DNA from: a virus
Strand: one strand, 5' to 3'
Length of the DNA stretch: 64,000 bases
Virus record (IMG/VR): IMGVR_UViG_3300045988_147927
Span: 138,995 to 202,994 of that record
Positions within the stretch are counted from its first letter, which is position 1, and every line of letters starts with the position of its first letter. A model generated the notes under the pieces. That model had not been told where the DNA came from. It saw nothing but the letters and a program-made list of their open reading frames with translations, and did not search any database. The position numbers were made by a program, and so were the translations under genes. Shown piece by piece: positions 3,666 to 52,379 of this stretch.

Positions 3666-4883
3666 AAATTAAATAGTAACGATAACAAAATATATAGGTC
3701 AGTTAAGATTAGGTTATTACCAACAAAAGAGCAAGAGATTTTGTTTTGGAAGAGTGTAGGTGTTGCTAGATGGTCTTATAATTACTTTTTATCAGAGAGT
3801 TATAGGGTATATCAAGAATGGTTAGAAGATAAAAGTAAACCAAAGCATATATCTGAGATGGAGGTTAGAAAGTATATTAATAATCATCTTAAAAAGACTA
3901 CACATACATGGCTTAAAGAGGTTGGAAGTAATGTAATGAAACAGGGTGTCAAAGATGCCAACATAGCATTACAGAATTTCTTTAAATATAACAAAGGTTA
4001 TCCTAAGTTTAAATCTAAGAAAAGGTCTAAGCCTAGTTTCTATGTTAATTACGAAAGTTTAAAACGTACACCAAATGGATTTCGTGGTGAGAGAATTGGT
4101 TATGTTAAAACTAAGGAATCACTACCTATGATTGGTAAGAATCAAAAATACCGTAGACCTAGAATTAGTTTTGATGGTAGATTTTGGTACTTATCTGTTA
4201 GCTTTGAGGTTAAGAGGTTAGATGTTAAATTATCAGATACTAAGTTAGGTATAGACTTGGGCATTAAAGAGTTAGCTGTTGTTTCTAGTCAGAGTGGTAC
4301 TGATATTAAGAAGTATCATAATATAAATAAAACTTGTGAAGTAAAGAGATTAGAGAAAAAGCTAAAACGTGAGCAACGTAAGTTTTCACGTAAGATTCTT
4401 GTACATAAAGGTCTTTGTAATAATAAAACTAATCATAAAAAAGAACTAGAATTATGTAAAAACATTCAAAAACAAAAGAGTATAATTCAGAGATTATATA
4501 GACGATTGTTAAATATCAGGACTAATTATTTACATCAAACAACTACTGAGATAGTGAAAACCAAACCATCTCATATAGTTTTAGAAGATTTGAATGTTAG
4601 TGGAATGATGAAAAATCGTCATTTATCAAAGTCTATTATGTGTCAAAAATGGTATGAGTTTAGGAGACAGATAGAGTATAAAGCTGAATTATATGGTATT
4701 GAAGTTGTATTAGCAGATAGATTTTATCCTAGTTCTAAGACTTGTAGTTGTTGTGGTAATGTCAAGAGAGACTTAAAATTATCTGACAGAGTATATAGAT
4801 GTGATTGTTGTGGTAATGTTGTTGATAGAGATGTCAATGCATCAATCAATTTAGCTAATTATAATATAGAAAGTGTCAAATAA
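3666..4883 (+). CDS. tnpB: TnpB (RNA-guided RuvC nuclease, IS200/605 family); start codon unresolved
   Basis: RuvC-I GIDLGIKELAV, RuvC-II IVLEDLNVSGM, zinc finger CSCCGN...CDCCGN, RuvC-III DRDVNASINL. The N-terminal signature YRSVKIRLLPTKEQ lies upstream of the ORF-track start at 3741. The frame is open only from 3666, with no ATG/GTG/TTG in 3666-3740. TTG 3657 with a good RBS is followed by an in-frame TAA at 3663. Confidence 0.8.
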   Translation, partial: KLNSNDNKIYRSVKIRLLPTKEQEILFWKSVGVARWSYNYFLSESYRVYQEWLEDKSKPKHISEMEVRKYINNHLKKTTHTWLKEVGSNVMKQGVKDANIALQNFFKYNKGYPKFKSKKRSKPSFYVNYESLKRTPNGFRGERIGYVKTKESLPMIGKNQKYRRPRISFDGRFWYLSVSFEVKRLDVKLSDTKLGIDLGIKELAVVSSQSGTDIKKYHNINKTCEVKRLEKKLKREQRKFSRKILVHKGLCNNKTNHKKELELCKNIQKQKSIIQRLYRRLLNIRTNYLHQTTTEIVKTKPSHIVLEDLNVSGMMKNRHLSKSIMCQKWYEFRRQIEYKAELYGIEVVLADRFYPSSKTCSCCGNVKRDLKLSDRVYRCDCCGNVVDRDVNASINLANYNIESVK

Positions 4884-20816: not shown

Positions 20817-21914
20817 TTGAATAAAAGTTTTAAAGTTAGGATTTATCCTACAAAAGAGCAATGTGTTCTTTTAGAAAAGACCTTTGGTGCAAACAGGTTT
20901 GTTTATAATTACTTTCTCAACTTAAAAAGTAAGTTGTATGAGTTTTATAAAATAAATCTTAGTTACAACAATTCTTCTAAAGTGCTAACAGAATTAAAGA
21001 AAACTAAAACTTGGCTTAAAGAGGTTGATAGTAAATCTTTAATTCAAACACTTAGGGATTTAGATAGAGCATATCAAAACTTTTTTAGTGGTAGAGGTAA
21101 ATACCCTAATTTTAAAAAGAAACAAGATAAAAACTCTTATCGTACTAATCAAAGCATTAAATTAGTCAATTCTTTTATTTCTATTCCAAAGGTAGGTCTA
21201 CTTAGATATAAAGATAAGTGTAAATTTGATGATAAACATATTCTTAAAATTTATAATGTAACAATATCTAAGACATCTAGTGGAAAATATTATGCTAGTA
21301 TATCAGCTGAGGTCTATATACCTAATTTTGAGAAAACCAATCAAAGTTGTGGTATAGACTTAGGTTTAAAAGATTTTGCAATTTTAGATACTGGTGAAAA
21401 GATAAAGAATCCTAGAATATTAAAGCATCTTGAAGTTAAGTATAGAAAATTAGCTAAAGCTGTTTCAAGAAAAGTTAAAGGTTCAGCTAATTATCAAAAA
21501 GCTAAGTTAAAGTTAGCAAGGTTTCATGAGAAAGTTACGAATATTCGTAAAGATTTTCTTCATAAATTATCTACTAACTTAGTAAAAACTTATGATATTA
21601 TTTGTGTTGAGACTCTTAAAGTTAAAAATATGATGAAAAATCATACATTAGCAAAATCATTTCAAGATGTAGCACATTCTGAGTTTATAAGACAGTTAGA
21701 ATATAAAGCTAAGTGGTATGGTAAAACTATCTCTAAAATAGATAGATTTTATCCATCAAGTCAGGTATGTTCTAATTGTGGATATAAAAACAAAGATGTT
21801 AAAAATCTTAGTATTCGTGAGTGGATTTGTCCAGAGTGTGGGGTTCATCATGATAGAGATATCAATGCATCAATTAATATTTTGAATGAGGGATTACGAC
21901 TTATAGAAGTGTAA
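20817..21914 (+). CDS. tnpB: TnpB (RNA-guided RuvC nuclease)
   Basis: N-terminal [11 protein letters not shown], Ruv[13 protein letters not shown], Ruv[14 protein letters not shown], zinc finger CSNCGY...CPECG, Ruv[17 protein letters not shown] start. Confidence 0.85.
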
Positions 21915-28372: not shown

Positions 28373-29149
28373 TTGGAGGGTATATTGATAGTGAAAGATA
28401 TTTTAGCTAAAGATGGTATATTGTGTGGTATTCCTAGTGATAGGAGTTGTAATTTGATTGTATTGTTCTCTGGTGGATTTGATTCTACTGCATTATTACA
28501 TATGGCAGTTAATACTAAGAAGAAATATAATACTATAAAAACAGTATATGCTTTGTATGTTAAAAGTAATCTATTAGATGAAGGGAAAGTTAAGTTAGAG
28601 GAAAATCATGTAAAAAAGTTTATTTCTTATATTAATCAAGATGAGGAGATTGTAAAGTTAGTTACTTATGAGAGTTCATTTAGTGATTTAGAAGAGTATG
28701 CTTATAGTGAAAATTCATATGACTTAATATTTATTAATGCTATTAATTCAGTAGTACATATGATGGGTGGTGCTGATGTTAATATAGTATTGAATGGCTC
28801 ATTAGATGGAGATTCAAGGGTATATCATCTACCATATTATAAAAGTATGGTTGAAGGCTTCAATAAAGAGTATAGGGGTGTAGATGTGGTTATGATGTTC
28901 CCACTTATGCAGATTAATAAACCTAGAATTATAGATTATTTACTCAACAACAATTTATATCAGTATTGTACTTGTTGTGAGAGTCCTAATAGTGATGTCT
29001 TTTGTAATAGTTGTAAGGAGCATTTAAGGGCTTTATATGAATTATTACTTATCTATGATGTGTATGGTGATATTGAGCCTAAAGATGGAAATGAAGAGTT
29101 TGTTCGTGGTGAAATAAATAGGATACATGGGGTTGAGTCTGATGAGTGA
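28373..29149 (+). CDS. PP-loop ATPase, QueC-like
   Basis: LIVLFSGGFDSTALL (SGGxDS PP-loop). C-terminal Cys cluster CTCCES...FCNSCKEHLRA resembles the QueC zinc site. TTG start. Confidence 0.5.
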   Translation: MEGILIVKDILAKDGILCGIPSDRSCNLIVLFSGGFDSTALLHMAVNTKKKYNTIKTVYALYVKSNLLDEGKVKLEENHVKKFISYINQDEEIVKLVTYESSFSDLEEYAYSENSYDLIFINAINSVVHMMGGADVNIVLNGSLDGDSRVYHLPYYKSMVEGFNKEYRGVDVVMMFPLMQINKPRIIDYLLNNNLYQYCTCCESPNSDVFCNSCKEHLRALYELLLIYDVYGDIEPKDGNEEFVRGEINRIHGVESDE

Positions 29150-31091
29150 TACTAACGATAAAAGACACTTATGGGGTGGTAAGGGTAAAAGAACATATAA
29201 TAATGGTGTGATAGCTAAAAGATATTTTGAAGGTGAGCAACCTGAAGGATTTGTACTTGGAATGTTACCACGTACTGATGAGCAAAAGGCTAAAAGTAAT
29301 GCTAAGAGGGTTAAAACTACAATAGAGAAGTACGGTGTTTCTAATGTAGCACAGTCTAAAGATGTGTATGAAAAGATGTTAGAGACAAATCTTAAAAAGT
29401 ATGGTGTTGAGCATCCACAGACTCTTGAATCTCAAAAAGAAAAGGTAAAGAAAACAAATCTAGAGAGATATGGTACTACTAATGGTAAGGTGTTAAAACC
29501 AAAAGTAGATAAGCCTAAAAAAGAGAAAAAAGTAAAATTACCTAAAGTTAAAGATACTCGTAAAGGACATTACTATAATAATAGTATCATCACTAGAAAA
29601 ATTAAAGAGGGTGATGTTATACCTGATGGGTTTGTTAGAGGAATGTTATTAAGTGATGAACTTAAAAAGAATAGGTCAGCTAAGGCTAAAGAGACATTTC
29701 TCAAAAAATATGGTGTAGATAACCCTGCTAAGTCTAAAGAGGTACTAGTTAAGATACAGAAAACAAATTTAGATAGGTATGGTGTTGAATGTTCTGCACA
29801 ATCAGAAGTTGTTAAAGAAAAGATAAAAGCTACAAATCTTAAAAAATACGGTGTTGAGTATTCTTTTCAAGCAGAGGAAGTTAAGGATAAAATCAAAGCT
29901 ACAAGTCTAGAGAGGTATGGTGTAGAAAATCCATCTAAGTCAGAAGTTATTAAGAGTAAGATTGTTGAATCTAATCGTAAGAATTTAGGTGTAGATTATC
30001 CTATGCAGTCTAAGGATGTGATGGATAAGTCTAGGGCAACTTCTTTTGAAAAGTATGGAACTGAGTATCCTAATCAGTCAGAAATTGTTAAATCTAAGAT
30101 TGACGCTAGTACTTTAGAGCATTATGGTGTTAATCGTGCTTGTAAGTTAGATGAATTTAAGCAAAAAATCGTAGATACTAATAGAGAACGGTATGGTGTA
30201 GATTATACTTGTTTAATATATAGTGGTAAGTTAAAGGGTAATGACAGTAGTTACAACCGTTCTTTTGCTGAGTTATTAGATATTAATAACATTACATATG
30301 AGAGAGAGTTTTTATTACAAAAATATTCCTATGATTTTAAAGTAGGGAATACTTTGATTGAGATAGACCCCACTGCTACTCATAATACTTATTTCAGCCC
30401 TTATGGTGATAATAGAATTGATGTTAATTATCATAGAGATAAGACTAAGTTAGCTAAAGATAATGGATATAGTGTAATTCATATATTTGAATGGGATGAT
30501 ATTAATAAAGTTATGCAATTATTGAAAAATAGGGTTACTGTATATGCTAGAAAATGTGAAGTAAGGATGGTTAGTGATGTAGATACTGGTAATTACTTAG
30601 ATACATACCATTTACAGGGTACTTGTAGAGGACAGAAAATTAGATTAGGTCTATATTATGATAATCAATTAGTATCATTAATGACTTTTGGTAAATCACG
30701 TTTTAATAAAAATTGTGAATATGAATTATTGAGATATTGTGCTAGTTACAATGTAGTAGGTGGTGCTGAGAAGTTATTTAAGTACTTTGTAGATAATTAT
30801 AAACCTAGCAGCATTGTGTCATATTGTGATACATCAAAATTTAGTGGTAAGGTGTATGATACTTTGAGTTTTGAGTTTATTAAGACAAACAAACCTAGAA
30901 AGCATTGGTATAGTATGAAAGAGAAACGTCATATTACTGATGGATTATTATTAAGTCAGGGATATGATAGATTATTTAAAGAGAATCATGGTAAAGGCAC
31001 TTCTAATGAAGAGTTAATTCTTAGTAGAGGGTATTTACCTGTATATGATTGTGGTCAATCAACTTATATTTGGAGAAGTGATAATGTCTAG
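29142..31091 (+). CDS. Free-standing endonuclease-like protein: about 12 tandem 32-33-aa KYGV repeats + PD-(D/E)xK-like core + C-terminal domain
   Basis: Repeats of the type T.LKKYGVENPSQS.EVK.KIK. Core FAELLD...YEREF...YSYDFKVGNTLIEIDPTATHN. ATG 29142 overlaps the upstream stop (ATGAGTGA). Confidence 0.5.
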   Translation: MSDTNDKRHLWGGKGKRTYNNGVIAKRYFEGEQPEGFVLGMLPRTDEQKAKSNAKRVKTTIEKYGVSNVAQSKDVYEKMLETNLKKYGVEHPQTLESQKEKVKKTNLERYGTTNGKVLKPKVDKPKKEKKVKLPKVKDTRKGHYYNNSIITRKIKEGDVIPDGFVRGMLLSDELKKNRSAKAKETFLKKYGVDNPAKSKEVLVKIQKTNLDRYGVECSAQSEVVKEKIKATNLKKYGVEYSFQAEEVKDKIKATSLERYGVENPSKSEVIKSKIVESNRKNLGVDYPMQSKDVMDKSRATSFEKYGTEYPNQSEIVKSKIDASTLEHYGVNRACKLDEFKQKIVDTNRERYGVDYTCLIYSGKLKGNDSSYNRSFAELLDINNITYEREFLLQKYSYDFKVGNTLIEIDPTATHNTYFSPYGDNRIDVNYHRDKTKLAKDNGYSVIHIFEWDDINKVMQLLKNRVTVYARKCEVRMVSDVDTGNYLDTYHLQGTCRGQKIRLGLYYDNQLVSLMTFGKSRFNKNCEYELLRYCASYNVVGGAEKLFKYFVDNYKPSSIVSYCDTSKFSGKVYDTLSFEFIKTNKPRKHWYSMKEKRHITDGLLLSQGYDRLFKENHGKGTSNEELILSRGYLPVYDCGQSTYIWRSDNV

Positions 31092-32487
31092 TAGGGTTAA
31101 AAAGAAATATTATCATAATGGCATTGTTAATAAAATGTATGAGGAGGGTAAACAGCCAGATGGTTTTGTACTAGGAATGTTACCACGTACAAAAGAAAAA
31201 CAAGATGCTATTAATAAAAAGAGAGAAGAGACTACATTAAAGAAGTATGGTGTTTCTCATGTGTCGCATTTAAGTGATGTTAAGTCTAAAAAGAAAAAGT
31301 CTTTACTAGAGCATTATGGGGTAGATAATCCATCTAAGTCTAAGGAGATACAAAATAAGAAAAGAGATATCTTTATTAAGAAGTATGGTGTAGATAACCC
31401 TATGAAGTCTGAAGAGATTAAACAGAAGTTTAGGGATAACTATAACACTAAATATGGTGTAGATAATCCTTTTCAATTAGATGTTGTTAAAGATAAAATC
31501 AAAGATACTAGTAGGGAAAATTTAGGTGTAGATTATCCTACTCAATGTCAAGAGGTTAGAGATAAGGTTAGGAATACCTTTATGGAACGATATGGTGTAC
31601 CGTATACATTTATGTTGTCTAAAGAGTGGATAGAGGCTAATGATAGTAAACCTAACAGAGATTTTGCTGAGTTGTTAGATACTAACAATATTAAGTATGA
31701 ACGTGAGTTTAGGTGTGGTAAGTATTCATATGATTTTAAAATAGGGAATACACTTATAGAGATAAACCCTACAGCTACACACAATACTCATTTTAGTCCT
31801 TATGGTGATAATAGAATTGATTCAAATTATCACAGAGATAAATCTAAGTTAGCTAATGATAATGATTATAGTGTAATACATATATTTGACTGGGATGATA
31901 AGAATAAGATTATCAATCTTCTTAGAGATAGGGATATAGTATATGCTAGAAAATGTGATATAAGATTAGTTGATAGTGTAGAGTGTAATCAATATCTTAT
32001 GACATACCATTTACAGGGTAAGTGTAATAATCAAACAATTAGATTAGGGTTATATTATGATAATCAATTAGTATCATTAATGACTTTTGGTAAGCCTAGA
32101 TATAACAGTAGGTATGAGTATGAGTTGTTGAGATACTGTGCTAGTCATAATGTAATAGGTGGTGCTGAGAAGTTATTTAAGTATTTTATTAATACCTATA
32201 AACCTAGCAGCATTGTGTCATATTGTGATACATCAAAATTTAGTGGTAAAGCCTATGACACTTTGGGGTTTAATAGGGTTAATGATAATAAACCATCTTG
32301 CCATTGGTATAGTGTAGAAGAAGATAAACATATAACTGATAATTTGTTGCGTATGCAAGGGTATGATAGACTTTTCAAAGAAAATCATGGTAAAGGGACT
32401 TCTAATGAAGAATTAATTCTAGCTAGGGGATATTTACCAGTATATGATTGTGGACAGTCTACTTATGTTTATATTAATAAAAAATAA
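31084..32487 (+). CDS. Paralogue of the preceding endonuclease-like protein (fewer repeats)
   Basis: Same N-terminus (YHNGIVNKMYEEGKQPDGFVLGMLPRT), KYGV repeats, core YSYDFKIGNTLIEINPTATHN and a near-identical C-terminal domain. ATG 31084 follows GGAG. Confidence 0.5.
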   Translation: MSSRVKKKYYHNGIVNKMYEEGKQPDGFVLGMLPRTKEKQDAINKKREETTLKKYGVSHVSHLSDVKSKKKKSLLEHYGVDNPSKSKEIQNKKRDIFIKKYGVDNPMKSEEIKQKFRDNYNTKYGVDNPFQLDVVKDKIKDTSRENLGVDYPTQCQEVRDKVRNTFMERYGVPYTFMLSKEWIEANDSKPNRDFAELLDTNNIKYEREFRCGKYSYDFKIGNTLIEINPTATHNTHFSPYGDNRIDSNYHRDKSKLANDNDYSVIHIFDWDDKNKIINLLRDRDIVYARKCDIRLVDSVECNQYLMTYHLQGKCNNQTIRLGLYYDNQLVSLMTFGKPRYNSRYEYELLRYCASHNVIGGAEKLFKYFINTYKPSSIVSYCDTSKFSGKAYDTLGFNRVNDNKPSCHWYSVEEDKHITDNLLRMQGYDRLFKENHGKGTSNEELILARGYLPVYDCGQSTYVYINKK

Positions 32488-41818: not shown

Positions 41819-41850
41819 AACTTTACAATATCATAGAGATATAGTAAGAT
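41819..41850 (+). promoter_or_regulatory. Promoter of the AACTTTACA class
   Basis: aacTTTACA (TTTACA 41822-41827), 17-nt spacer, TAAGAT (41845-41850). Confidence 0.5.
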
Positions 41851-45403: not shown

Positions 45404-45480
45404 TACTTTACAAAACATTACAACTTGTGGTATTGTGTAAGTAGAAAATATAGTGTTTATTTAAAAGGAGATTTTTCACT

Positions 45481-47310
45481 ATGAATAAGAAAACAATGTT
45501 AACAGCTTTAATTATTTCATCTATGGCAATGAGTGTAGGTGCTGTAGATAATGTTGCTGGTACAGGTAATGGTATCGCTTATGGTAGTGGTAGTCATGCA
45601 CCTAAAGTAGAAAATATTGCTATTGGTGGTAATGCATCTATCAGCTATTCCAATGGTAATAGTAATGCTACAGGTGATATTGTAGTTGGTAAAGATGCTA
45701 ATATCAATAACTATGCTAGTCAAGGTGGTAGTGTTGCTATTGGTAAAAATGCTAAAGTAGAGAATATGGCAGGTGGTCAGGAGGCAAGTTTTGCTTTTGG
45801 ACAAACTTCATATAGTGGTGGTATGTTTTCATCTTCACGTATTCCAGCAGACCCAACAAAGGTAGTAGGAAGTGTGGTTGTTGGTGATAATACGTTTGCT
45901 CGTACTGGTTCTACTATGGTTGGTTCACACAATTATAAAGGTGAGTTAGGTGATACTACAGTTGATACTGCCACTACTCGTAAAGATAATTTAGGTGTGT
46001 ATGCTACTACTATTGGTGCTAATAGTTTTAGTAATGGTGCTTTTATTACTAATACTGGTACATATAACATTGTGTCTAGTGATTATAAAGGTGGTCGCTC
46101 AGATGATATGTTTGGTATCTCTATTAAGAATATGGGCGCTACTGTAAATGGTTCATTCAATAGTATTGAGTCTAAGACTGCTGATGGGTATGGTGCAGGT
46201 ATTGCTAATACTGTAACAGGTGTTGCCAATCGTACTTTCAATACGAATGGTACTTTAGTGTATGGTGCAGGTAATGTGGTAACTAATTCGATTGGTTCAT
46301 TAAGTGGATTCCCTACAAGTGGTGGTAATTCTGCTAAGGATTTTTCTAATAGATTACGTGATGGTGTAAGGAGTTCTCATGGTGCTGGTGCTACTATGGT
46401 TTTTGGTGGTGGTAATGTCGCTGATTATACAAAACGTACCTCTATTATTGGTGTTAATAATGTAGTGGCTGGTGATAGTACACATAGTAGTGAAGATAAT
46501 TTTGTAGTTGGTTATCAAAATACAGGTGTTAGTTTGAATGGTACTACTGTTATTGGTTCTAATCGTTCTGTAGCTAATACCAATAATACTGTAATTATTG
46601 GTAATGTGGTAGATAGTACAGGTTCTATTACTGCAAGTAATGCTGTAGCTATTGGTACTGATACTAATGTTTTGTTTGATGGTGGTGTGGCTTTAGGTTC
46701 TAAATCATATTCTAATCGTAGTGCTAATGAAAATGGTGGGTATGATGTAGTTACTAAGATGTCATCTAGTGATACTTCTAGTGTATGGAAACCTACAGAT
46801 AGTGCTGTTTCAGTAGGTAATGGTGTTGAAGTAACTCGTAGAATTACTTCTGTTGCCGCTGGTTTAGAAGATACAGATGCTGTTAATGTGGCTCAATTAA
46901 AGCGTGTTGTTGATATTGTTGGTGATAATTCATTACAAGAATCAAAATCTTACACTGATAAAGAAGTAGGTAAAGTAGGGGCATCATCTAATGCATTGGC
47001 AGGGTTAAAATTCCTAGATTATAACCCTAATGATAAGTGGTCTTTTGCCACAAGTTTAGGTCATTATCAAGGTTCTAGTGCAGTAGCTTTGGGTGTTGCA
47101 TATCAACCTAATGCGAATGTCATGTTACATGGTGGTGTAGTGCTAGATGGAAAATCATCTTATAATATTGGTGCTAGTTTTAAAGTTGGTAATGGTGGCA
47201 ATAAGGTTGTAGATACAAATGCCTATGGTATGATTAAAAAACTACAGGAAGATAATGAACAGTTGCGAAAAGAATTAGAAGATATTAAGTTCATGTTAAA
47301 TAATAAGTAG
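45481..47310 (+). CDS. Trimeric autotransporter adhesin (YadA-like) with signal peptide, head repeats, neck/stalk, beta-barrel anchor and a short coiled-coil tail
   Basis: MNKKTMLTALIISSMAMSVGA signal peptide. Many G.NA.A.G-type head repeats. AVSVGNG...RRITSVAAGLEDTDAVNVAQLK neck motif. C-terminus ALAGLKFLDY...WSFATSLGHYQGSSAVALGVAYQPNANVMLHGGV...YNIGASFKVG anchor. About 40 extra residues follow (LQEDNEQLRKELEDIKFML). Confidence 0.85.
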   Translation: MNKKTMLTALIISSMAMSVGAVDNVAGTGNGIAYGSGSHAPKVENIAIGGNASISYSNGNSNATGDIVVGKDANINNYASQGGSVAIGKNAKVENMAGGQEASFAFGQTSYSGGMFSSSRIPADPTKVVGSVVVGDNTFARTGSTMVGSHNYKGELGDTTVDTATTRKDNLGVYATTIGANSFSNGAFITNTGTYNIVSSDYKGGRSDDMFGISIKNMGATVNGSFNSIESKTADGYGAGIANTVTGVANRTFNTNGTLVYGAGNVVTNSIGSLSGFPTSGGNSAKDFSNRLRDGVRSSHGAGATMVFGGGNVADYTKRTSIIGVNNVVAGDSTHSSEDNFVVGYQNTGVSLNGTTVIGSNRSVANTNNTVIIGNVVDSTGSITASNAVAIGTDTNVLFDGGVALGSKSYSNRSANENGGYDVVTKMSSSDTSSVWKPTDSAVSVGNGVEVTRRITSVAAGLEDTDAVNVAQLKRVVDIVGDNSLQESKSYTDKEVGKVGASSNALAGLKFLDYNPNDKWSFATSLGHYQGSSAVALGVAYQPNANVMLHGGVVLDGKSSYNIGASFKVGNGGNKVVDTNAYGMIKKLQEDNEQLRKELEDIKFMLNNK

Positions 47311-47320
47311 TTGATTTTTT

Positions 47321-47364
47321 ATATTGGTGAGGTATATACTTTTCGTATCTCACCAATATTTTTG
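47321..47364 (+). terminator. Rho-independent terminator after the adhesin gene
   Basis: atattggtgag...ctcaccaatat stem followed by TTTTT. Confidence 0.8.
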
Positions 47365-47382
47365 TATGAGGAGATTTTGATT

Positions 47383-48168: not shown

Positions 48169-49530
48169 ATGTATATAATCTGTAGATTTACTAATACTGA
48201 AGGAATAGAAAATTTTAATAAGGTTAATGCTGATAGAGGTATTTATATTCATTCAGATATGGTTGAATATAACCTAGATACTGGTGTTTATAGATGTAGT
48301 GGATTAAATGCCTATAATACTGTTGACACTTCGTCTGATGAAAGGTATGACTATTGGCTAGGTATGCCTAGATTTGTTAATAATAAAGTAAGATATGTTG
48401 CAACTATAAAATTTACAACAAAAAATTTAGGGATTGAAGAGCTTGAAAAGATATTTTCTCAGAAAATATCTCCAAAGACTAAGAGTCTTAAATATCCTAA
48501 ACAAGATGTTTTTGCAAACCGTTATTTGAGAGTTGTTGGTGGTGATAATCCGAGTTATCCAGTATACGTTGTTTCAAAAGGCAGATATGAAAAGACTTTA
48601 GCAAAGACTGTTAGAGTTTTGAATAGGATGAATGTTCCTCATTTTGTTGTTGTTGAACCTGATGAAGTTGGTTTGTATAGAGAGTCATTCAATGCTCTTG
48701 GGTATACTTATAGTACTATACTTGAGCTAGATATGTCTTATAAAGACAATTATGCTACTCTTGATGATAGAGGTAATACTATTGGTAAAGGTCCTGGTGG
48801 TGCTAGGAACTTTTGCTGGGATGATTCTATTAAGAGAGGGTTTTCTTATCACTGGGTTTTAGATGATAATATTGAGTGGTTTAGGTATTTTACAGATAAT
48901 TTTCAAAGAAAAACTCTTAGTGGTGTTTGTTTTAAAGCAGCTGAGGATTTTATCACTAGATTTAAGAATGTAGCAATGGGTTCTCTTAATTATAGTATGT
49001 TTTTAGATGCTAGAAATACTGCATATCCATATATAAAAAATACTAGAATGTATTCTATTATTTTCATTAGGAATGATATACCTTATAGGTGGAGAGGTAG
49101 GTATAATGAAGATACTATAATATCTTTGGATTGTTTGTCAGATGGTTGGTGTACTATTCAGATGTGTGCTTTTACTGCTGACAAGTTAGCTACACAACGT
49201 ATAGGTGGTGGCAACTCATATATGTTTTATTTCAAAGAAGGTACTGATAATAAATCTCAAATGTTAGTTGATGTTTATCCTCAATATGCTCAAAAGGTTT
49301 TTAAGTTTAACAGAATACATCATTATGTTGACTATAGTATCTTTAATGGTAGGCTTGAATATAAAGATGATTTTGATATATCTAAGTTATCTAAGGTTGA
49401 TAATTATGGTATGAAGATGGTAAAAATACCTAAAGAGTGGGATTACACTGAAAAAGATTCAAGGGAATACATAGAATCTCATATTGATGAGTGTGAAGTT
49501 GTTGATATGTTTGAAGGATTTAGTGTTTGA
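48169..49530 (+). CDS. Two-domain protein; C-terminal part glycosyltransferase-like (GT-A-type DDN motif)
   Basis: YPVYVVSKGRYEKTLAKTVRVLNRMNVPHFVVVEPDE...GPGGARNFCWDDS...YHWVLDDNI resembles GT-A / TET-JBP-associated glycosyltransferase layouts (recalled, weak). Confidence 0.35.
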   Translation: MYIICRFTNTEGIENFNKVNADRGIYIHSDMVEYNLDTGVYRCSGLNAYNTVDTSSDERYDYWLGMPRFVNNKVRYVATIKFTTKNLGIEELEKIFSQKISPKTKSLKYPKQDVFANRYLRVVGGDNPSYPVYVVSKGRYEKTLAKTVRVLNRMNVPHFVVVEPDEVGLYRESFNALGYTYSTILELDMSYKDNYATLDDRGNTIGKGPGGARNFCWDDSIKRGFSYHWVLDDNIEWFRYFTDNFQRKTLSGVCFKAAEDFITRFKNVAMGSLNYSMFLDARNTAYPYIKNTRMYSIIFIRNDIPYRWRGRYNEDTIISLDCLSDGWCTIQMCAFTADKLATQRIGGGNSYMFYFKEGTDNKSQMLVDVYPQYAQKVFKFNRIHHYVDYSIFNGRLEYKDDFDISKLSKVDNYGMKMVKIPKEWDYTEKDSREYIESHIDECEVVDMFEGFSV

Positions 49531-49621: not shown

Positions 49622-50164
49622 ATGTCAGATTCTAGACTTGGTTTTTACAAAATACTTGGTAACATTGATGGTAATGATACAATACTTATGTCTTTAGCAA
49701 AAGTAAAATATACTAAAGATGAAAATACATATTTAATGTTAAAGAAGGATACTTTATATGAGGAGTTGTTGTTTGATTTATCAGACTCATATGATGTTTT
49801 AGAAATTTCAGAGATTGAGTATTATGGTGATTTAGATAAAGAATTTAAATTAGAAGTTTCTAATTATTTTGGTTCTGCATCATCAACATATATTTCTATT
49901 GGTAGTGTACATAGAAGGTTAATTGGCAAATCTTTCGATGTTACCTTTAATAGTGGGTATCACAGTATATACTTTGAATTTTTAGATTATAATAATGTTA
50001 AAATTCATTATCGTAAATTACATTTAGATGTTAATTATGGAGATACTGAGATAGGTTTGGATGATTTAGAAATTATTTTAAGAGCCATTAGGTTATTTAA
50101 CATGGGTATACGTAAAGAAGTTTCTAGTGATAGTATTAGAAGAGCTTTTCATAATGAGGGATAA
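49622..50164 (+). CDS. hypothetical protein
   Basis: 180-aa ORF. RBS GTGAGGTG. Confidence 0.6.
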   Translation: MSDSRLGFYKILGNIDGNDTILMSLAKVKYTKDENTYLMLKKDTLYEELLFDLSDSYDVLEISEIEYYGDLDKEFKLEVSNYFGSASSTYISIGSVHRRLIGKSFDVTFNSGYHSIYFEFLDYNNVKIHYRKLHLDVNYGDTEIGLDDLEIILRAIRLFNMGIRKEVSSDSIRRAFHNEG

Positions 50165-50165
50165 A

Positions 50166-51068
50166 ATGATTCATTATAGGAATGGTAATGCAGATATAAC
50201 ATTATATGATGATGGTACTAGGATTATTGAGACTGATGATAGTATTCTCAGATTAGATACGCCTCTTAACATTGATATAAGGGTATCTAAAAGATGTCCT
50301 TATGGATATAATGCTGACACAGGTGTTAGTGTTTGTAGTTTTTGTCATGAATCAGCTACTACAGATGGTGATGTGTGTGATTATGATAAATTGTTAGATG
50401 TTATCATGGCTGCTGATTTACCAAAAGGTACTGAGTTGGCAATAGGTGCAAATCAAATATCTGATGATTTTATAGAGTTTGTTAAGGATTTGTATAATCT
50501 AGGTTTTATAGTTAATGTAACTGTTAATGAGAGATATATTGCAGATGGTGGTGATAGGCATCTTAAAAAGGTTATGCAGTATATCAAGGGGTTAGGTATT
50601 AGTTTTCGTACATTAGATGGTAGTATGGGTTTACCTGAATGGATATCAGATTATAGTAATACTGTTGTTCATGTGATATGTGGTATTGATAGTCTTAGGG
50701 ATGTGTGTAAGTTGCATAAAAAATATCGTAAAGTACTTGTTCTAGGTGAGAAAGATTTTGGGTTTAATGCTAATAAAGTAGACCTAACTTCTAATTCTCA
50801 TATTGAATGGGATACACATATTATGAAATTGACTAAGTTGTTTGATATAGTTTCTTTTGATAATTTAGCTTTAGAGCAGTTACACATTAAAGATAAAATC
50901 TCTAAAGAGGAGTATCAGGCTTTTTATCAAGGTGAGCATTCAATGTATATTAATGCTGTTGATGAGTATTTTGCACCTAGTAGTAGAATAATGGATGTTA
51001 TTAAGAAGTTTGATGAGATTAGTTTACGTGAATATTTTAAAATGAAGGAGAACATGATATGCGATTAG
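50166..51068 (+). CDS. Cys-cluster protein, possible non-canonical radical-SAM / Fe-S TIM-barrel enzyme
   Basis: IDIRVSKRCPYGYNADTGVSVCSFCHESATTDG (C-x12-C-x2-C following a beta-strand, reminiscent of variant QueE-type clusters). Alternating beta/alpha pattern downstream. ATG 50166 follows TGAGGGA. Confidence 0.25.
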   Translation: MIHYRNGNADITLYDDGTRIIETDDSILRLDTPLNIDIRVSKRCPYGYNADTGVSVCSFCHESATTDGDVCDYDKLLDVIMAADLPKGTELAIGANQISDDFIEFVKDLYNLGFIVNVTVNERYIADGGDRHLKKVMQYIKGLGISFRTLDGSMGLPEWISDYSNTVVHVICGIDSLRDVCKLHKKYRKVLVLGEKDFGFNANKVDLTSNSHIEWDTHIMKLTKLFDIVSFDNLALEQLHIKDKISKEEYQAFYQGEHSMYINAVDEYFAPSSRIMDVIKKFDEISLREYFKMKENMICD

Positions 51069-51847
51069 TTAGAAATGGTGTATTTGAGACAAATAGTTCT
51101 TCTGCCCATTCTTTGGCTTATAAGAATACAGTCTTGCGTGATTATGATTATAAACCAAGCAAAGATTTGTGTTTATCTATTAAGGAATTGAGGCTAACAG
51201 AAAAACCAAAGGAATATGAAATGTATTCATATATGCCGTTATATTTTGATGAGTATGGATGGGGGTTCGATATATTGACTTCCCCAGCAGAAAAGTTAAG
51301 TTATTTAATGTCATCTGTTTATCCGTATAAAACTTGGGGAATTGTTAAAGAAGACCAATTTTTCAAGCAAGTGATTCAATGGTTAAGTGAATTGGATATT
51401 GTGGTAGAATTGCCAGAGGAATATGGTGAATCTTCTGAAGTTGATGCCTATGTTGACCATCAATCTTGGAATGTCGTTACAAAGGATATGTTTCAAACAA
51501 AAGAAGATTTGTTGACATATCTATTTAATAACGACATTGTAATCTATATTGAAAATGATAATTCTGATGTCATGCAAAACTGGGTTGATACACCAAAAGA
51601 AGAAATTGATTATCGTCAAGCAATGTATTGGTGTGTTTCACAAAGTAAATGTGTAAGACGAAAATCTTGGGATGATGGTGTGTATTTGATTTATGATGTT
51701 GTAGAGGATGATGAAAATCATTATAGATTGGATTATTTATTGGTAGACAACAAAATTAAAACCAATTATAAACCGACTGAAGATGATAAAAATGCAAATG
51801 ACTGGACAGTTGCTTTGGAGGTATCTAAATATGAAATTAATTCGTAA
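51059..51847 (+). CDS. Unknown putative metalloenzyme domain (FETNSSSAHS family) fused to a C-terminal DUF2829/Tad2-like domain
   Basis: N-terminal domain motifs NGVFETNSSSAHS, FDEYGWGFD, YVDHQS, DIVIYIENDN. C-terminal 75 aa, IDYRQAMYWCVSQSKCVRRKSWDDGVYLIY...NYKPTEDDKNANDWTVA, fit the DUF2829 pattern (..A...l..G..vrR..W......, W.P...D..A.DW.v). Confidence 0.5.
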   Translation: MRLVRNGVFETNSSSAHSLAYKNTVLRDYDYKPSKDLCLSIKELRLTEKPKEYEMYSYMPLYFDEYGWGFDILTSPAEKLSYLMSSVYPYKTWGIVKEDQFFKQVIQWLSELDIVVELPEEYGESSEVDAYVDHQSWNVVTKDMFQTKEDLLTYLFNNDIVIYIENDNSDVMQNWVDTPKEEIDYRQAMYWCVSQSKCVRRKSWDDGVYLIYDVVEDDENHYRLDYLLVDNKIKTNYKPTEDDKNANDWTVALEVSKYEINS

Positions 51848-52379
51848 TGGTGTGTTTGAAACAAATTCTAGTTCCGCACATTCTTTAGCTTATAAGAATG
51901 AAGATGTTTTACGAGGTGTTTATGAAAGTAATGGTGTTAAAGATTTTAAAGATGGTAGATATAGACTAACTGAAATACCTGAAAAGTATAAGAATTATGT
52001 ATTACACCCTAGATTTGATGAGTATGGGTGGGGATTTGACATATTAGAAACACCTGATGAAAAATTAAGTTATATCTTAACTAATGAGTATGAAGATGTA
52101 AAATCTTTACAGAAGGTATATAATGGTAAGTTTTTTGTAACTATTGTTAAGTGGTTGCAAGAGTTTGGTATAAATGTTAGCATTAAAAAATTACAATTAG
52201 ATGAGTGGGGATACGTTGATGGGTATATTGACCATGAGAGTAAATTTGTAATTCCAAAGGATATTTTTCATGATAAAGAGGATTTAATCACTTATCTGTT
52301 CAATGATGATATTGTTGTGTACATTGAGAATGATAATGAAGAGTGTATGCAGTGGCTAAAGAAGAGTAATAAAAAGTGA
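51831..52379 (+). CDS. Paralogue of the FETNSSSAHS-family domain (no Tad2-like extension)
   Basis: MKLIRNGVFETNSSSAHSLAYKN, FDEYGWGFD, YIDHES, DIVVYIENDN. ATG follows GGAGG and overlaps the upstream gene by 17 nt. Confidence 0.6.
   Translation: MKLIRNGVFETNSSSAHSLAYKNEDVLRGVYESNGVKDFKDGRYRLTEIPEKYKNYVLHPRFDEYGWGFDILETPDEKLSYILTNEYEDVKSLQKVYNGKFFVTIVKWLQEFGINVSIKKLQLDEWGYVDGYIDHESKFVIPKDIFHDKEDLITYLFNDDIVVYIENDNEECMQWLKKSNKK

What the first reader, a model, noticed from the sequence alone, without database searches (positions are those of the whole stretch)
45481..47364. Phage-encoded trimeric autotransporter adhesin as a self-contained cassette
Seen: the 609-aa ORF has the following parts.
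- A classic signal peptide.
- More than 20 YadA-like head repeats.
- The neck motif ...ITSVAAGLEDTDAVNVAQLK.
- A four-strand YadA-type anchor (…WSFATSLGHYQGSSAVALGVAYQPNANVMLHGGV…YNIGASFKVG).
- An additional coiled-coil tail of about 40 aa after the anchor.
The gene has its own strong RBS, an upstream TTTACA-type promoter box (45404-45436) and a strong terminator.
Known: YadA-type anchors insert into outer membranes through BAM. Extensions after the anchor, facing the periplasm, are a feature of some Fusobacterium and Negativicutes adhesins.
Inference: the host is a low-GC diderm. The phage decorates the infected cell surface with an adhesin, which could drive aggregation or biofilm formation, exclude superinfecting phage, or mask a receptor. 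This gene is unusual in a genome segment that otherwise looks virulent.
Basis: partly seen in the sequence, partly recalled or inferred. Interest (0 to 1): 0.65.

Follow-up and report, generated by a model that had tools for sequence, protein, structure and literature searches.

The report
Adhesin gene carried by virulent Veillonella phage
A large virulent phage of the gut and mouth bacterium Veillonella carries an intact, conserved copy of a bacterial surface adhesin with its own promoter and terminator, so infected cells probably get a new sticky surface coat before they burst.

Summary
ORF 45481-47310 (+) encodes a 609-aa trimeric autotransporter adhesin (TAA). It has a Sec-type signal peptide, a beta-roll head, a YadA neck (PF05662), a YadA anchor (PF03895) and a 39-aa periplasmic coiled coil. 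It also has its own promoter, RBS and terminator.

The window is a T4-like phage of about 200 kb (gp20-like portal, Gp23 capsid proteins, no integrase found).

The head is 62-70% identical to chromosomal Veillonella TAAs that end in an SLH domain. The anchor and tail belong to the coiled-coil-only Veillonella class.

- **Not a recent capture.** Third-position C is 4.8%, matching the phage mean of 5.0%; host TAA genes have 10-17%.
- **Under purifying selection.** dN/dS is 0.12-0.14, with no amino-acid changes in the neck or anchor.
- **Kept at full length.** The 90% cluster holds 152 sequence variants; nearly all of the 15 members listed are 609 aa.
- **Dispensable.** One relative has a clean in-frame deletion.
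- **Acquired more than once.** An unrelated phiKZ-like jumbo-phage lineage gained a similar TAA independently.

Best reading: an accessory gene that displays an adhesin on the infected cell. Whether it serves adhesion or superinfection exclusion is untested. This is a new variant of a known kind; prophage Eib TAAs are the precedent.

The parts
45405..45436 (+). Sigma-70-type promoter, ACTTTACA (-35) - 18 nt - TGG TATTGT (extended -10)
   Evidence: One of 5 intergenic + strand matches to ACTTTACA-N17/18-TADDRT, against 0.17 expected (pattern defined post hoc). The region is 100% identical in 4 related genomes. As a single generic sigma-70 match it is not above chance.
45464..45471 (+). Ribosome-binding site AAAGGAGA, with 10 nt between GGAG and the ATG
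   Evidence: Read directly from the sequence. Invariant in relatives.
45481..47310 (+). TAA coding sequence, 609 aa plus stop
   Evidence: ORF list. Pfam YadA_anchor and YadA_stalk above their cutoffs. dN/dS 0.12-0.14 against relatives. 152 variants in the 90% cluster; nearly all of the 15 members listed are 609 aa.
45481..45543 (+). Sec/SPase I signal peptide, aa 1-21 (MNKK / hydrophobic 5-19 / VGA|VD)
   Evidence: Hydropathy profile. No Cys, so no lipobox. Heuristic only.
45544..46800 (+). Head, aa 22-440: about 20 beta-roll-like x-h-x-h-G units with insertions. The C-terminal third is YadA-like.
   Evidence: Regex and seed HMM. AF2 is confident only for aa 300-410, a beta-roll. Family profile hits to SadA, AtaA Ylhead, CbpF and YadA head. 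62-70% identity to chromosomal Veillonella TAA heads.
46801..47016 (+). Neck and short stalk helix, aa 441-512 (…VTRRITSVAAGLEDTDAVNVAQLK…), leading into the barrel
   Evidence: PF05662 at 454-483. SadA and YadA alignments. No nonsynonymous changes in aa 441-485 against L001 and L002.
47017..47190 (+). YadA-type membrane anchor, aa 513-570 (four beta-strands per monomer)
   Evidence: PF03895 at 513-567, E 2.3e-9. 2lme alignment. No nonsynonymous changes in aa 486-570. 56-63% identity to coiled-coil-class Veillonella anchors, 42-49% to SLH-class anchors.
47191..47307 (+). Periplasmic tail, aa 571-609, with about 3.5 heptads of coiled coil and no SLH domain
   Evidence: Heptad a/d positions I585, L588, N592, L595, L599, I602, L606. 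AF2 helix 579-608. Aligns with the CbpF post-anchor helix. No Pfam hit in the downstream ORF.
47321..47365 (+). Intrinsic terminator: 15-bp hairpin followed by a U-tract
   Evidence: dG -18.1 kcal/mol, z -3.2. Inverted repeat I1. Two compensatory stem substitutions in L001/L024 and L002. One of about ten such intergenic hairpins in the window.

Best explanation
The gene is a functional accessory ('moron') gene of a virulent T4-like Veillonella phage of about 200 kb. It encodes a complete Negativicutes-type trimeric autotransporter adhesin.

**Proposed mechanism** (steps 1-4 are inferred from sequence and family knowledge; step 5 is the least certain)
1. The gene is transcribed by host RNA polymerase from its own sigma-70-like promoter. 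It may also be transcribed by read-through from the upstream thyA-DHFR block. Transcription stops at its own terminator.
2. The precursor is exported by Sec and cleaved after VGA21.
3. Three chains form a 12-stranded barrel, inserted by BAM. The 39-aa C-terminal coiled coil stays in the periplasm, where it stabilises the protein as in VtaA, VtaE and VtaF.
4. A compact head and neck with almost no stalk is displayed on the surface of the still-intact infected cell.
5. The head, a homologue of chromosomal Veillonella adhesin heads, makes the infected cell stick. Targets could be other Veillonella cells, partner bacteria or surfaces. The burst then happens inside a dense host-rich biofilm rather than in the flowing fluid.

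The gene helps the phage but is not required for replication.
For: **Identity**
- Pfam anchor and neck score above their cutoffs.
- PDB matches include CbpF anchor plus tail, SadA, YadA head and YadA anchor.

**Phage context**
- Portal 31% identical to the Bacillus phage SP-15 gp20-type portal.
- Prohead protease.
- Two Gp23-family proteins and a sigma factor; no integrase family found.
- Thymidylate synthase, DHFR and Pnkp/RNA ligase nearby.
- Contigs carrying the gene reach 192-206 kb.

**Host**
- Closest homologues sit in chromosomal Veillonella contexts.

**Long residence and selection**
- Third-position C is 0.048, against a phage-gene mean of 0.050 +/- 0.017 and 0.10-0.17 in host TAA genes.
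- dN/dS is 0.12-0.14, similar to Pnkp and ThyA and lower than the neighbouring hypothetical genes.
- There are no nonsynonymous changes in the neck or anchor.
- The 90% cluster holds 152 variants; nearly all of the 15 members listed are 609 aa.
- The gene is intact in 6 of the 7 related contigs held (some may be the same phage assembled twice).

**Own expression signals**
-.

**Accessory status**
- L024 carries an in-frame deletion joining aa 1-71 to about aa 572-609 at an 11-nt microhomology.

**Convergence**
- A phiKZ-like jumbo phage lineage (RNAP beta subunit) carries a 594-aa TAA with the same layout.
- Each phage TAA is closer to cellular Veillonella TAAs than to the other phage's TAA.

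**Literature**
- The periplasmic coiled coil is needed for TAA stability in V. parvula. Coiled-coil domains do not bind peptidoglycan.
- TAA heads mediate homotypic autoaggregation (abstract of PMC7568254).
Against: - There are no expression, localisation or binding data.
- The signal peptide was judged by eye and hydropathy only.
- The AF2 monomer model is poor (mean pLDDT 46.5) and Foldseek matches are not significant.
- The N-terminal two-thirds of the head has no verified fold.
- The closest V. parvula homologue appears to be Vpar_0041, an assignment made by gene size only. It is split in strain SKV38 and has no known ligand.
- The deletion variant shows the phage can do without the gene.
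- Nothing here separates an adhesion benefit from a shielding benefit.
- Host assignment rests on homology of this gene, not on CRISPR spacers or culture.
Confidence: 0.55

Rival explanations
1. The protein acts in superinfection exclusion or receptor masking. It is displayed as above, but its benefit is steric. A dense, short, stalk-less layer covers the phage receptor or the outer membrane. This blocks secondary infection and stops progeny from adsorbing to infected cells and debris, analogous in purpose to T5 Llp.
For: - The architecture has almost no stalk, so the heads sit close to the membrane.
- A sigma-70-type promoter would allow early expression.
- The coiled-coil-only tail does not bind peptidoglycan, so the protein should not be excluded from the septum as SLH-type TAAs are.
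- The V. parvula chromosomal homologue is split in some strains. That would fit a surface protein under phage pressure, but this is speculative.
Against: - No receptor is known.
- The head stays 62-70% identical to host adhesin heads with many invariant positions. That fits a retained binding function at least as well as steric shielding.
- No homology to known exclusion proteins was found.
Confidence: 0.25
2. This is lysogenic-conversion-type cargo. On this reading the element is temperate or persists as a carrier state, and the TAA serves the bacterium during long-term carriage, as Eib TAAs do on E. coli prophages.
For: - Phage-borne TAAs known so far are on prophages (own knowledge: Sandt and Hill 2000/2001).
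- PHROG families 9547 and 10464 weakly match the anchor at their C-termini.
Against: - T4-type portal and Gp23 capsid proteins.
- Genome of about 200 kb with all genes on one strand.
- No integrase, recombinase or repressor family among about 60 ORFs scanned. Only the 64-kb window was scanned.
- Related contigs of 134-206 kb have the same phage genes on both sides of the TAA in the stretches read, with no bacterial genes.
Confidence: 0.05
3. The gene is a hitch-hiking captured host gene with no role for the phage, slowly decaying.
For: - One relative has deleted it.
- The flanking region is a hot spot for insertions: TAGT in the window and TnpB in L068.
Against: - dN/dS is 0.12-0.14, and the anchor and neck are invariant.
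- The 90% cluster holds 152 variants; nearly all of the 15 members listed are 609 aa.
- Composition is fully ameliorated, which implies long retention.
- The promoter region is conserved and the terminator shows compensatory changes.
- A second phage lineage acquired one independently.
Confidence: 0.05
4. The protein is a virion component (tail fibre or decoration) that uses a YadA-like head, as in the YadA-domain structural proteins reported for several phages.
For: YadA-domain structural proteins exist in phages such as phiEco32, My1 and Syn19 (PMC9146016).
Against: - It has a cleavable signal peptide and a membrane beta-barrel anchor under the strictest constraint in the protein.
- It lies among nucleotide-metabolism genes, far from the portal, capsid and protease block.
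- It is deleted in frame in a 199-kb relative.
- It has no paralogue elsewhere in the window.
Confidence: 0.03

Closest known systems
Veillonella TAAs with a short periplasmic coiled-coil domain (VtaA, VtaE, VtaF class; Bechon et al. 2020, PMC7549365; Dorison et al. 2026, bioRxiv 10.64898/2026.01.22.700529)
   Same: - Signal peptide, passenger, YadA anchor, then a coiled coil of under 100 aa after the barrel.
- The anchor and tail are 55-63% identical to chromosomal Veillonella anchors of this class.
   Different: - VtaA, VtaE and VtaF are about 3000-aa fibres with long stalks; this protein is 609 aa with almost no stalk.
- Its head resembles the SLH class instead.
- It is encoded by a phage.
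Chromosomal SLH-type Veillonella TAAs of 723-934 aa (P0002, P0008, P0035; in V. parvula, 801-818 aa proteins that appear to be Vpar_0041-like)
   Same: The head and neck are 62-70% identical over aa 22-485, with many invariant positions.
   Different: - They carry a short coiled coil plus an SLH peptidoglycan-binding domain after the anchor; the phage protein stops after the coiled coil.
- Their anchors are only 42-49% identical.
- The Vpar_0041 assignment rests on matching gene sizes only.
Fusobacterium nucleatum CbpF (PDB 9gh4, 9gh5)
   Same: It is the best PDB match. The anchor plus post-anchor helix align at residues 486-607 (E 1.9e-10), and the family profile matches from the head to the tail.
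   Different: - It comes from a different phylum and is chromosomal.
- It binds CEACAM; no evidence of that specificity was found here.
- Identity is low.
E. coli Eib immunoglobulin-binding TAAs on lambdoid prophages (own knowledge: Sandt and Hill 2000, 2001; EibD structure 2xqh)
   Same: A phage genome carries a complete TAA as a non-essential cargo gene. A YadA-like head is a weak Foldseek match.
   Different: - Eib genes sit on temperate prophages and act in lysogens.
- They have an Ig-binding coiled-coil stalk and no periplasmic extension.
- This gene is on a T4-like virulent phage of a diderm Firmicute.
Phage structural proteins with YadA-like domains (PMC9146016)
   Same: They share the YadA-like beta-roll motif.
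   Different: Those are reported as virion structural proteins. This protein has a signal peptide and a membrane anchor and is dispensable.

Membership tests
Trimeric autotransporter adhesins (type Vc secretion) | C-terminal YadA-type translocator (PF03895), four beta-strands per chain | tested here: met
   PF03895 at 513-567, 37.6 bits against a cutoff of 22.7. Alignment with the YadA anchor 2lme.
Trimeric autotransporter adhesins (type Vc secretion) | N-terminal Sec signal peptide | tested here: met
   n/h/c regions and a VGA|V cleavage site by hydropathy and inspection. No dedicated predictor was available.
Trimeric autotransporter adhesins (type Vc secretion) | Passenger built from head, neck and stalk modules | tested here: met
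   Neck PF05662 above its cutoff. Family profile matches SadA, AtaA and YadA head-neck structures. Pfam YadA_head on the single sequence is below its cutoff, and the N-terminal two-thirds of the head has no verified fold.
Trimeric autotransporter adhesins (type Vc secretion) | Obligate homotrimer displayed on the outer membrane | not testable with these tools
   Only monomer AF2 was available, and the model was poor. Biochemistry is needed.
Negativicutes/Fusobacteria TAAs with a periplasmic domain, short (coiled-coil) class | [quoted passage not shown] | tested here: met
   39 aa after G570. Heptad pattern. AF2 helix 579-608. Aligns with the CbpF tail. Class definition.
Negativicutes TAAs, long (SLH) class | SLH domain (PF00395) after the anchor | tested here: not met
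   No SLH hit in the protein or in the downstream ORF. The head homologues do carry SLH.
Prophage-borne Eib TAAs | Carried by a temperate (lambdoid) prophage; Ig-binding coiled-coil stalk | tested here: not met
   T4-like virulent gene content and no integrase family found. There is almost no stalk. Only a weak structural resemblance to EibD was found. Ig binding cannot be tested here.
Phage moron / accessory cassette | Own promoter and terminator; dispensable; host-derived | tested here: met
   Promoter class and conservation. Terminator with covariation. In-frame deletion in L024. Host homologues.

The most novel reading that the evidence does not exclude
Strictly virulent phages of Veillonella have independently captured complete outer-membrane adhesins and keep them under selection. 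The two lineages are a T4-like phage of about 200 kb and a phiKZ-like jumbo phage. In both, a head like that of SLH-type host adhesins is joined to the non-peptidoglycan-binding coiled-coil anchor class. The phages would use these proteins to re-program the adhesion of the infected cell during the lytic cycle ('lytic conversion'), steering where in an oral or gut biofilm the burst occurs or who can superinfect.
Probability: 0.4. Interest if true: 0.7.

Novelty: new variant of a known kind. Interest (0 to 1): 0.52.

Why it matters
Veillonella is a keystone bridging organism in oral and gut biofilms, and its adhesins decide whom it sticks to. Its phages are almost unstudied: a 2026 survey called one contig the first predicted virulent phage of V. 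atypica.

A virulent phage that supplies its own adhesin would mean that infection changes the adhesive behaviour of cells before lysis. That bears on three things:
- phage spread in biofilms;
- the design of phage therapy for oral communities;
- the idea that surface-modifying cargo genes are not confined to temperate phages.

The system is testable, because V. parvula SKV38 is genetically tractable and has established TAA assays. Natural deletion variants also exist.

Tried and rejected
- **INPHARED searches.** A megablast of 12 kb around the gene found nothing. A tblastn of the TAA found only a mis-filed Salmonella contig. No cultured relative carries it.
- **Structure.** The AF2 monomer with a 31-sequence alignment had mean pLDDT 46.5. 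Foldseek against PDB gave no match at E <= 0.001. I used these only as weak support.
- **Counting head repeats.** A seed HMM recovered only its own seven seed units, so the count rests on a motif.
- **Generic promoter and terminator scanner.** It was uninformative: promoters were at chance level and the terminator was missed.
- **'The phage copy is a truncated SLH-type TAA'.** Rejected. No SLH remnant lies downstream. The anchor is of the coiled-coil class. Coiled-coil-only TAAs with this head type exist in cells, for example Megasphaera L027.
- **'A phage-specific TAA clade is shared by the two phage lineages'.** Rejected. Each phage TAA is closer to cellular TAAs than to the other phage's TAA.
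- **'Recent capture'.** Rejected by composition.
- **Exact look-up of the window protein's contig.** Not on record.
- **Literature.** Searches found no report of TAAs in Veillonella phages. I could not find an open-access statement that Eib genes are prophage-borne, so that point rests on my own knowledge.
Full report
**1. The observation**

The ORF is real. It runs 45481-47310 on the + strand and encodes 609 aa.

Pfam places a YadA neck/stalk motif at residues 454-483 and a YadA membrane anchor at 513-567. Both score above their curated cutoffs.

The single sequence matches these solved structures:
- the anchor plus post-anchor helix of a 'cell surface protein', 9gh4;
- SadA head-neck fragments;
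- the YadA head;
- the YadA anchor, 2lme.

9gh4's companion entry 9gh5 is annotated as Fusobacterium nucleatum CbpF.

A profile built from the protein and 30 homologues raises these matches to:
- E 1.7e-23 for SadA;
- E 6e-19 for the AtaA YadA-like head;
- E 1e-16 for CbpF;
- E 5e-12 for the YadA head;
- E 7e-11 for the YadA anchor.

The N-terminus has two lysines, a hydrophobic stretch of about 15 residues and a VGA|VD cleavage motif. There is no cysteine.

The 39 residues after the last barrel strand carry a clean heptad pattern, with I585, L588, N592, L595, L599, I602 and L606 at the a/d positions. AF2 predicts them as one helix.

The head claim is only partly verifiable:
- About 20 x-h-x-h-G units can be counted.
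- Pfam YadA_head is below threshold on the single sequence.
- AF2 is confident only for residues 300-410.
- Profile matches to solved heads cover only the C-terminal third.

**2. Expression signals**

- **RBS.** AAAGGAGA lies at 45464-45471, with 10 nt between GGAG and the ATG.
- **Promoter, generic scan.** A generic sigma-70 scan finds no more sites than in shuffled sequence.
- **Promoter, specific class.** The octamer ACTTTACA occurs in 6 intergenic regions, which make up about 10% of the window, out of 10 occurrences on the + strand. The full form ACTTTACA-N17/18-TAnnrT occurs five times, at 41820, 45405, 49543, 58831 and 62385. All five are on the + strand and fall in intergenic intervals, against 0.17 expected. 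I defined this pattern post hoc.
- **Upstream conservation.** The 88 nt before the ATG are identical in four related genomes. In the same genomes the coding sequence has dS of 0.12-0.19.
- **Terminator.** Downstream, a 15-bp hairpin plus U-tract has dG -18.1 kcal/mol and z -3.2. It carries two independent compensatory stem changes among relatives. It is one of about ten such intergenic hairpins in the window. The previous one lies at about 38.7 kb, so read-through from the thyA-DHFR block is also possible.

**3. The genome around it**

The window is phage DNA, with all long ORFs on one strand. It encodes:
- a T4-type portal, 31% identical to that of Bacillus phage SP-15;
- a prohead protease;
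- two Gp23-family capsid proteins and a sigma-70-region-2 protein;
- thymidylate synthase and a 5'-3' exonuclease;
- DHFR directly upstream of the TAA;
- a TET-associated glycosyltransferase and a Tad2-like protein;
- a Pnkp/RNA-ligase fusion, 37% identical to those of Fusobacterium phages;
- a helicase.

No integrase or recombinase family appeared among about 60 ORFs scanned. Contigs carrying the same TAA reach 192-206 kb. This supports a virulent T4-like phage of about 200 kb. That T4-like phages are strictly virulent is established knowledge, not something tested here.

**4. Origin of the gene**

The closest proteins outside the phage cluster are 723-934-aa proteins with YadA anchor plus SLH domains. 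The named ones are from Veillonella, and one sits among housekeeping genes on a 254-kb contig. A scan of reference genomes finds the head type in V. parvula, Megasphaera, Acidaminococcus and Dialister. It finds the anchor-plus-tail type across many Veillonella species.

The protein is mosaic relative to these:

| Module | Compared with | Identity |
|---|---|---|
| Head and neck (aa 22-485) | SLH-class chromosomal TAAs | 62-70% |
| Anchor | SLH-class anchors | 42-49% |
| Anchor plus tail | Coiled-coil-class Veillonella anchors | 55-63% |

Both periplasmic-domain classes are documented for V. parvula. In that species:
- the coiled coil is required for TAA stability;
- SLH binds peptidoglycan and excludes TAAs from the septum;
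- barrels co-evolve with their periplasmic domains.

The phage protein is therefore a normal short-class TAA, not a truncated SLH protein. No SLH remnant follows it. A Megasphaera TAA combines the same head type with a coiled-coil-only tail.

V. parvula homologues are 801-818 aa. One strain has a 476-aa split version, the same size as FNLLGLLA_00036 ('split Vpar_0041') in SKV38. That assignment rests on size only.

**5. Not a recent capture, and under selection**

| Measure | Phage TAA | Comparison |
|---|---|---|
| Third-position C | 4.8% | 5.0 +/- 1.7% in other phage genes; 10-17% in host TAA genes |
| GC skew | 0.33 | mean 0.38 over 24 other phage genes |
| dN/dS against two relatives | 0.12-0.14 | Pnkp 0.09-0.10; ThyA 0.07-0.13; neighbouring hypothetical genes 0.19-0.44 (one Tad2-like comparison 0.12) |
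| Nonsynonymous changes in neck and anchor | 0 | |

The 90%-identity cluster holds 152 distinct sequences. Nearly all of the 15 members listed are 609 aa.

Some of these contigs may be the same phage assembled twice.

One relative, L024 on a 199-kb contig, has an in-frame deletion. It fuses residues 1-71 to about 572-609 at an 11-nt microhomology. The gene is therefore useful to the phage but dispensable.

**6. A second phage lineage**

Thirteen IMG/VR contigs of up to 267 kb carry a 592-594-aa TAA with the same layout. They have GC of about 33% and ordinary skew.

On the one locus examined in detail (L017):
- a phiKZ-type RNA polymerase beta subunit is encoded;
- a 905-aa SLH-type TAA follows directly.

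No window gene other than the TAA is shared with these contigs.

The jumbo-phage head is 60% identical to 931-932-aa Veillonella TAAs, and its anchor plus tail is 72-73% identical to chromosomal Veillonella anchors. It is only 52-54% identical to the window protein. This points to independent acquisition and suggests a recurrent benefit.

**7. Mechanism**

Shown here:
- domain content;
- conserved expression signals;
- purifying selection;
- dispensability;
- phage context.

Inferred from family knowledge:
- Sec export;
- BAM-dependent trimeric barrel insertion;
- a periplasmic coiled coil that stabilises the protein;
- a short head-neck 'lollipop' on the infected cell surface.

The purpose is the weakest step. 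I favour adhesion or aggregation that keeps the infected cell in a host-rich biofilm. Two observations support this. The head is a well-conserved homologue of host adhesin heads. TAA heads are known to drive homotypic aggregation.

Steric exclusion or receptor masking is a serious rival. Virion, hitch-hiker and lysogenic-conversion readings are disfavoured for the reasons listed under each rival.

**8. Comparison and novelty**

As a protein, it is a new member of the Negativicutes short-periplasmic-domain TAAs.

As a phenomenon, phage-borne TAAs are known from E. coli prophages (Eib proteins; own knowledge). Two PHROG families weakly match the anchor at their C-termini.

I found no report of a complete TAA on a virulent T4-like or jumbo phage, or on any Veillonella phage. 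I therefore rate it a new variant of a known kind, of moderate interest.

Noticed in passing
window 1-64000: The strand composition is extreme throughout. C is 9.6%, G is 21.2% and GC skew is about +0.38. All long ORFs are on the + strand, and third-position C is only about 5%. This suggests strong C-to-T pressure or selection against C, possibly linked to DNA modification genes.
   Followed up: partly
window 48169-49530: A TET-associated glycosyltransferase gene (PF20691, E 4e-34) is present in the window. It is absent from the same position in all six related contigs: L001, L002, L066, L067, L068 and L024. It is a strain-specific insertion or deletion in a DNA-hypermodification function.
   Followed up: partly
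window ~3690-4883 and 20817-21914; L068:15516-16679; L024 from 16113: IS605-family TnpB (OrfB) genes are scattered in this phage. There are two copies in the window. In L068 a third is inserted immediately after the TAA terminator hairpin.
   Followed up: partly
window 51059-51847 and 51783-52379: A Tad2-like (Thoeris anti-defence) protein is followed by an ORF whose product resembles the Tad2-like protein's N-terminal part at 47-51% identity.
   Followed up: no
window 28373-29149 and 50127-51068: A QueC-like PP-loop protein and a radical-SAM/Fe-S oxidoreductase-like protein are present. They may hint at 7-deazaguanine-type DNA modification alongside the cytosine pathway.
   Followed up: no
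window 29127-31091 and 31045-32487: Two adjacent, overlapping large paralogous ORFs (654 and 480 aa) match HNH/homing-endonuclease PHROGs 3339 and 559.
   Followed up: no
L017:10001-14580 (and L003-L012, L015, L016): A phiKZ-like jumbo phage lineage carries a 594-aa coiled-coil-tail TAA on 13 contigs. On L017, the one locus examined, a 905-aa SLH-type TAA follows directly and a radical-SAM gene lies upstream.
   Followed up: partly
L024:8001-8330: A relative's TAA is reduced to a 109-aa in-frame remnant (signal peptide, first head repeats and coiled-coil tail) by deletion at an 11-nt microhomology. The promoter and terminator are kept.
   Followed up: yes
L031:3001-4431: The V. parvula chromosomal homologue of the head is split to 476 aa in strain LFYP99. 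That is the same size as the split gene FNLLGLLA_00036 in SKV38. This would be recurrent inactivation of this adhesin in hosts.
   Followed up: no
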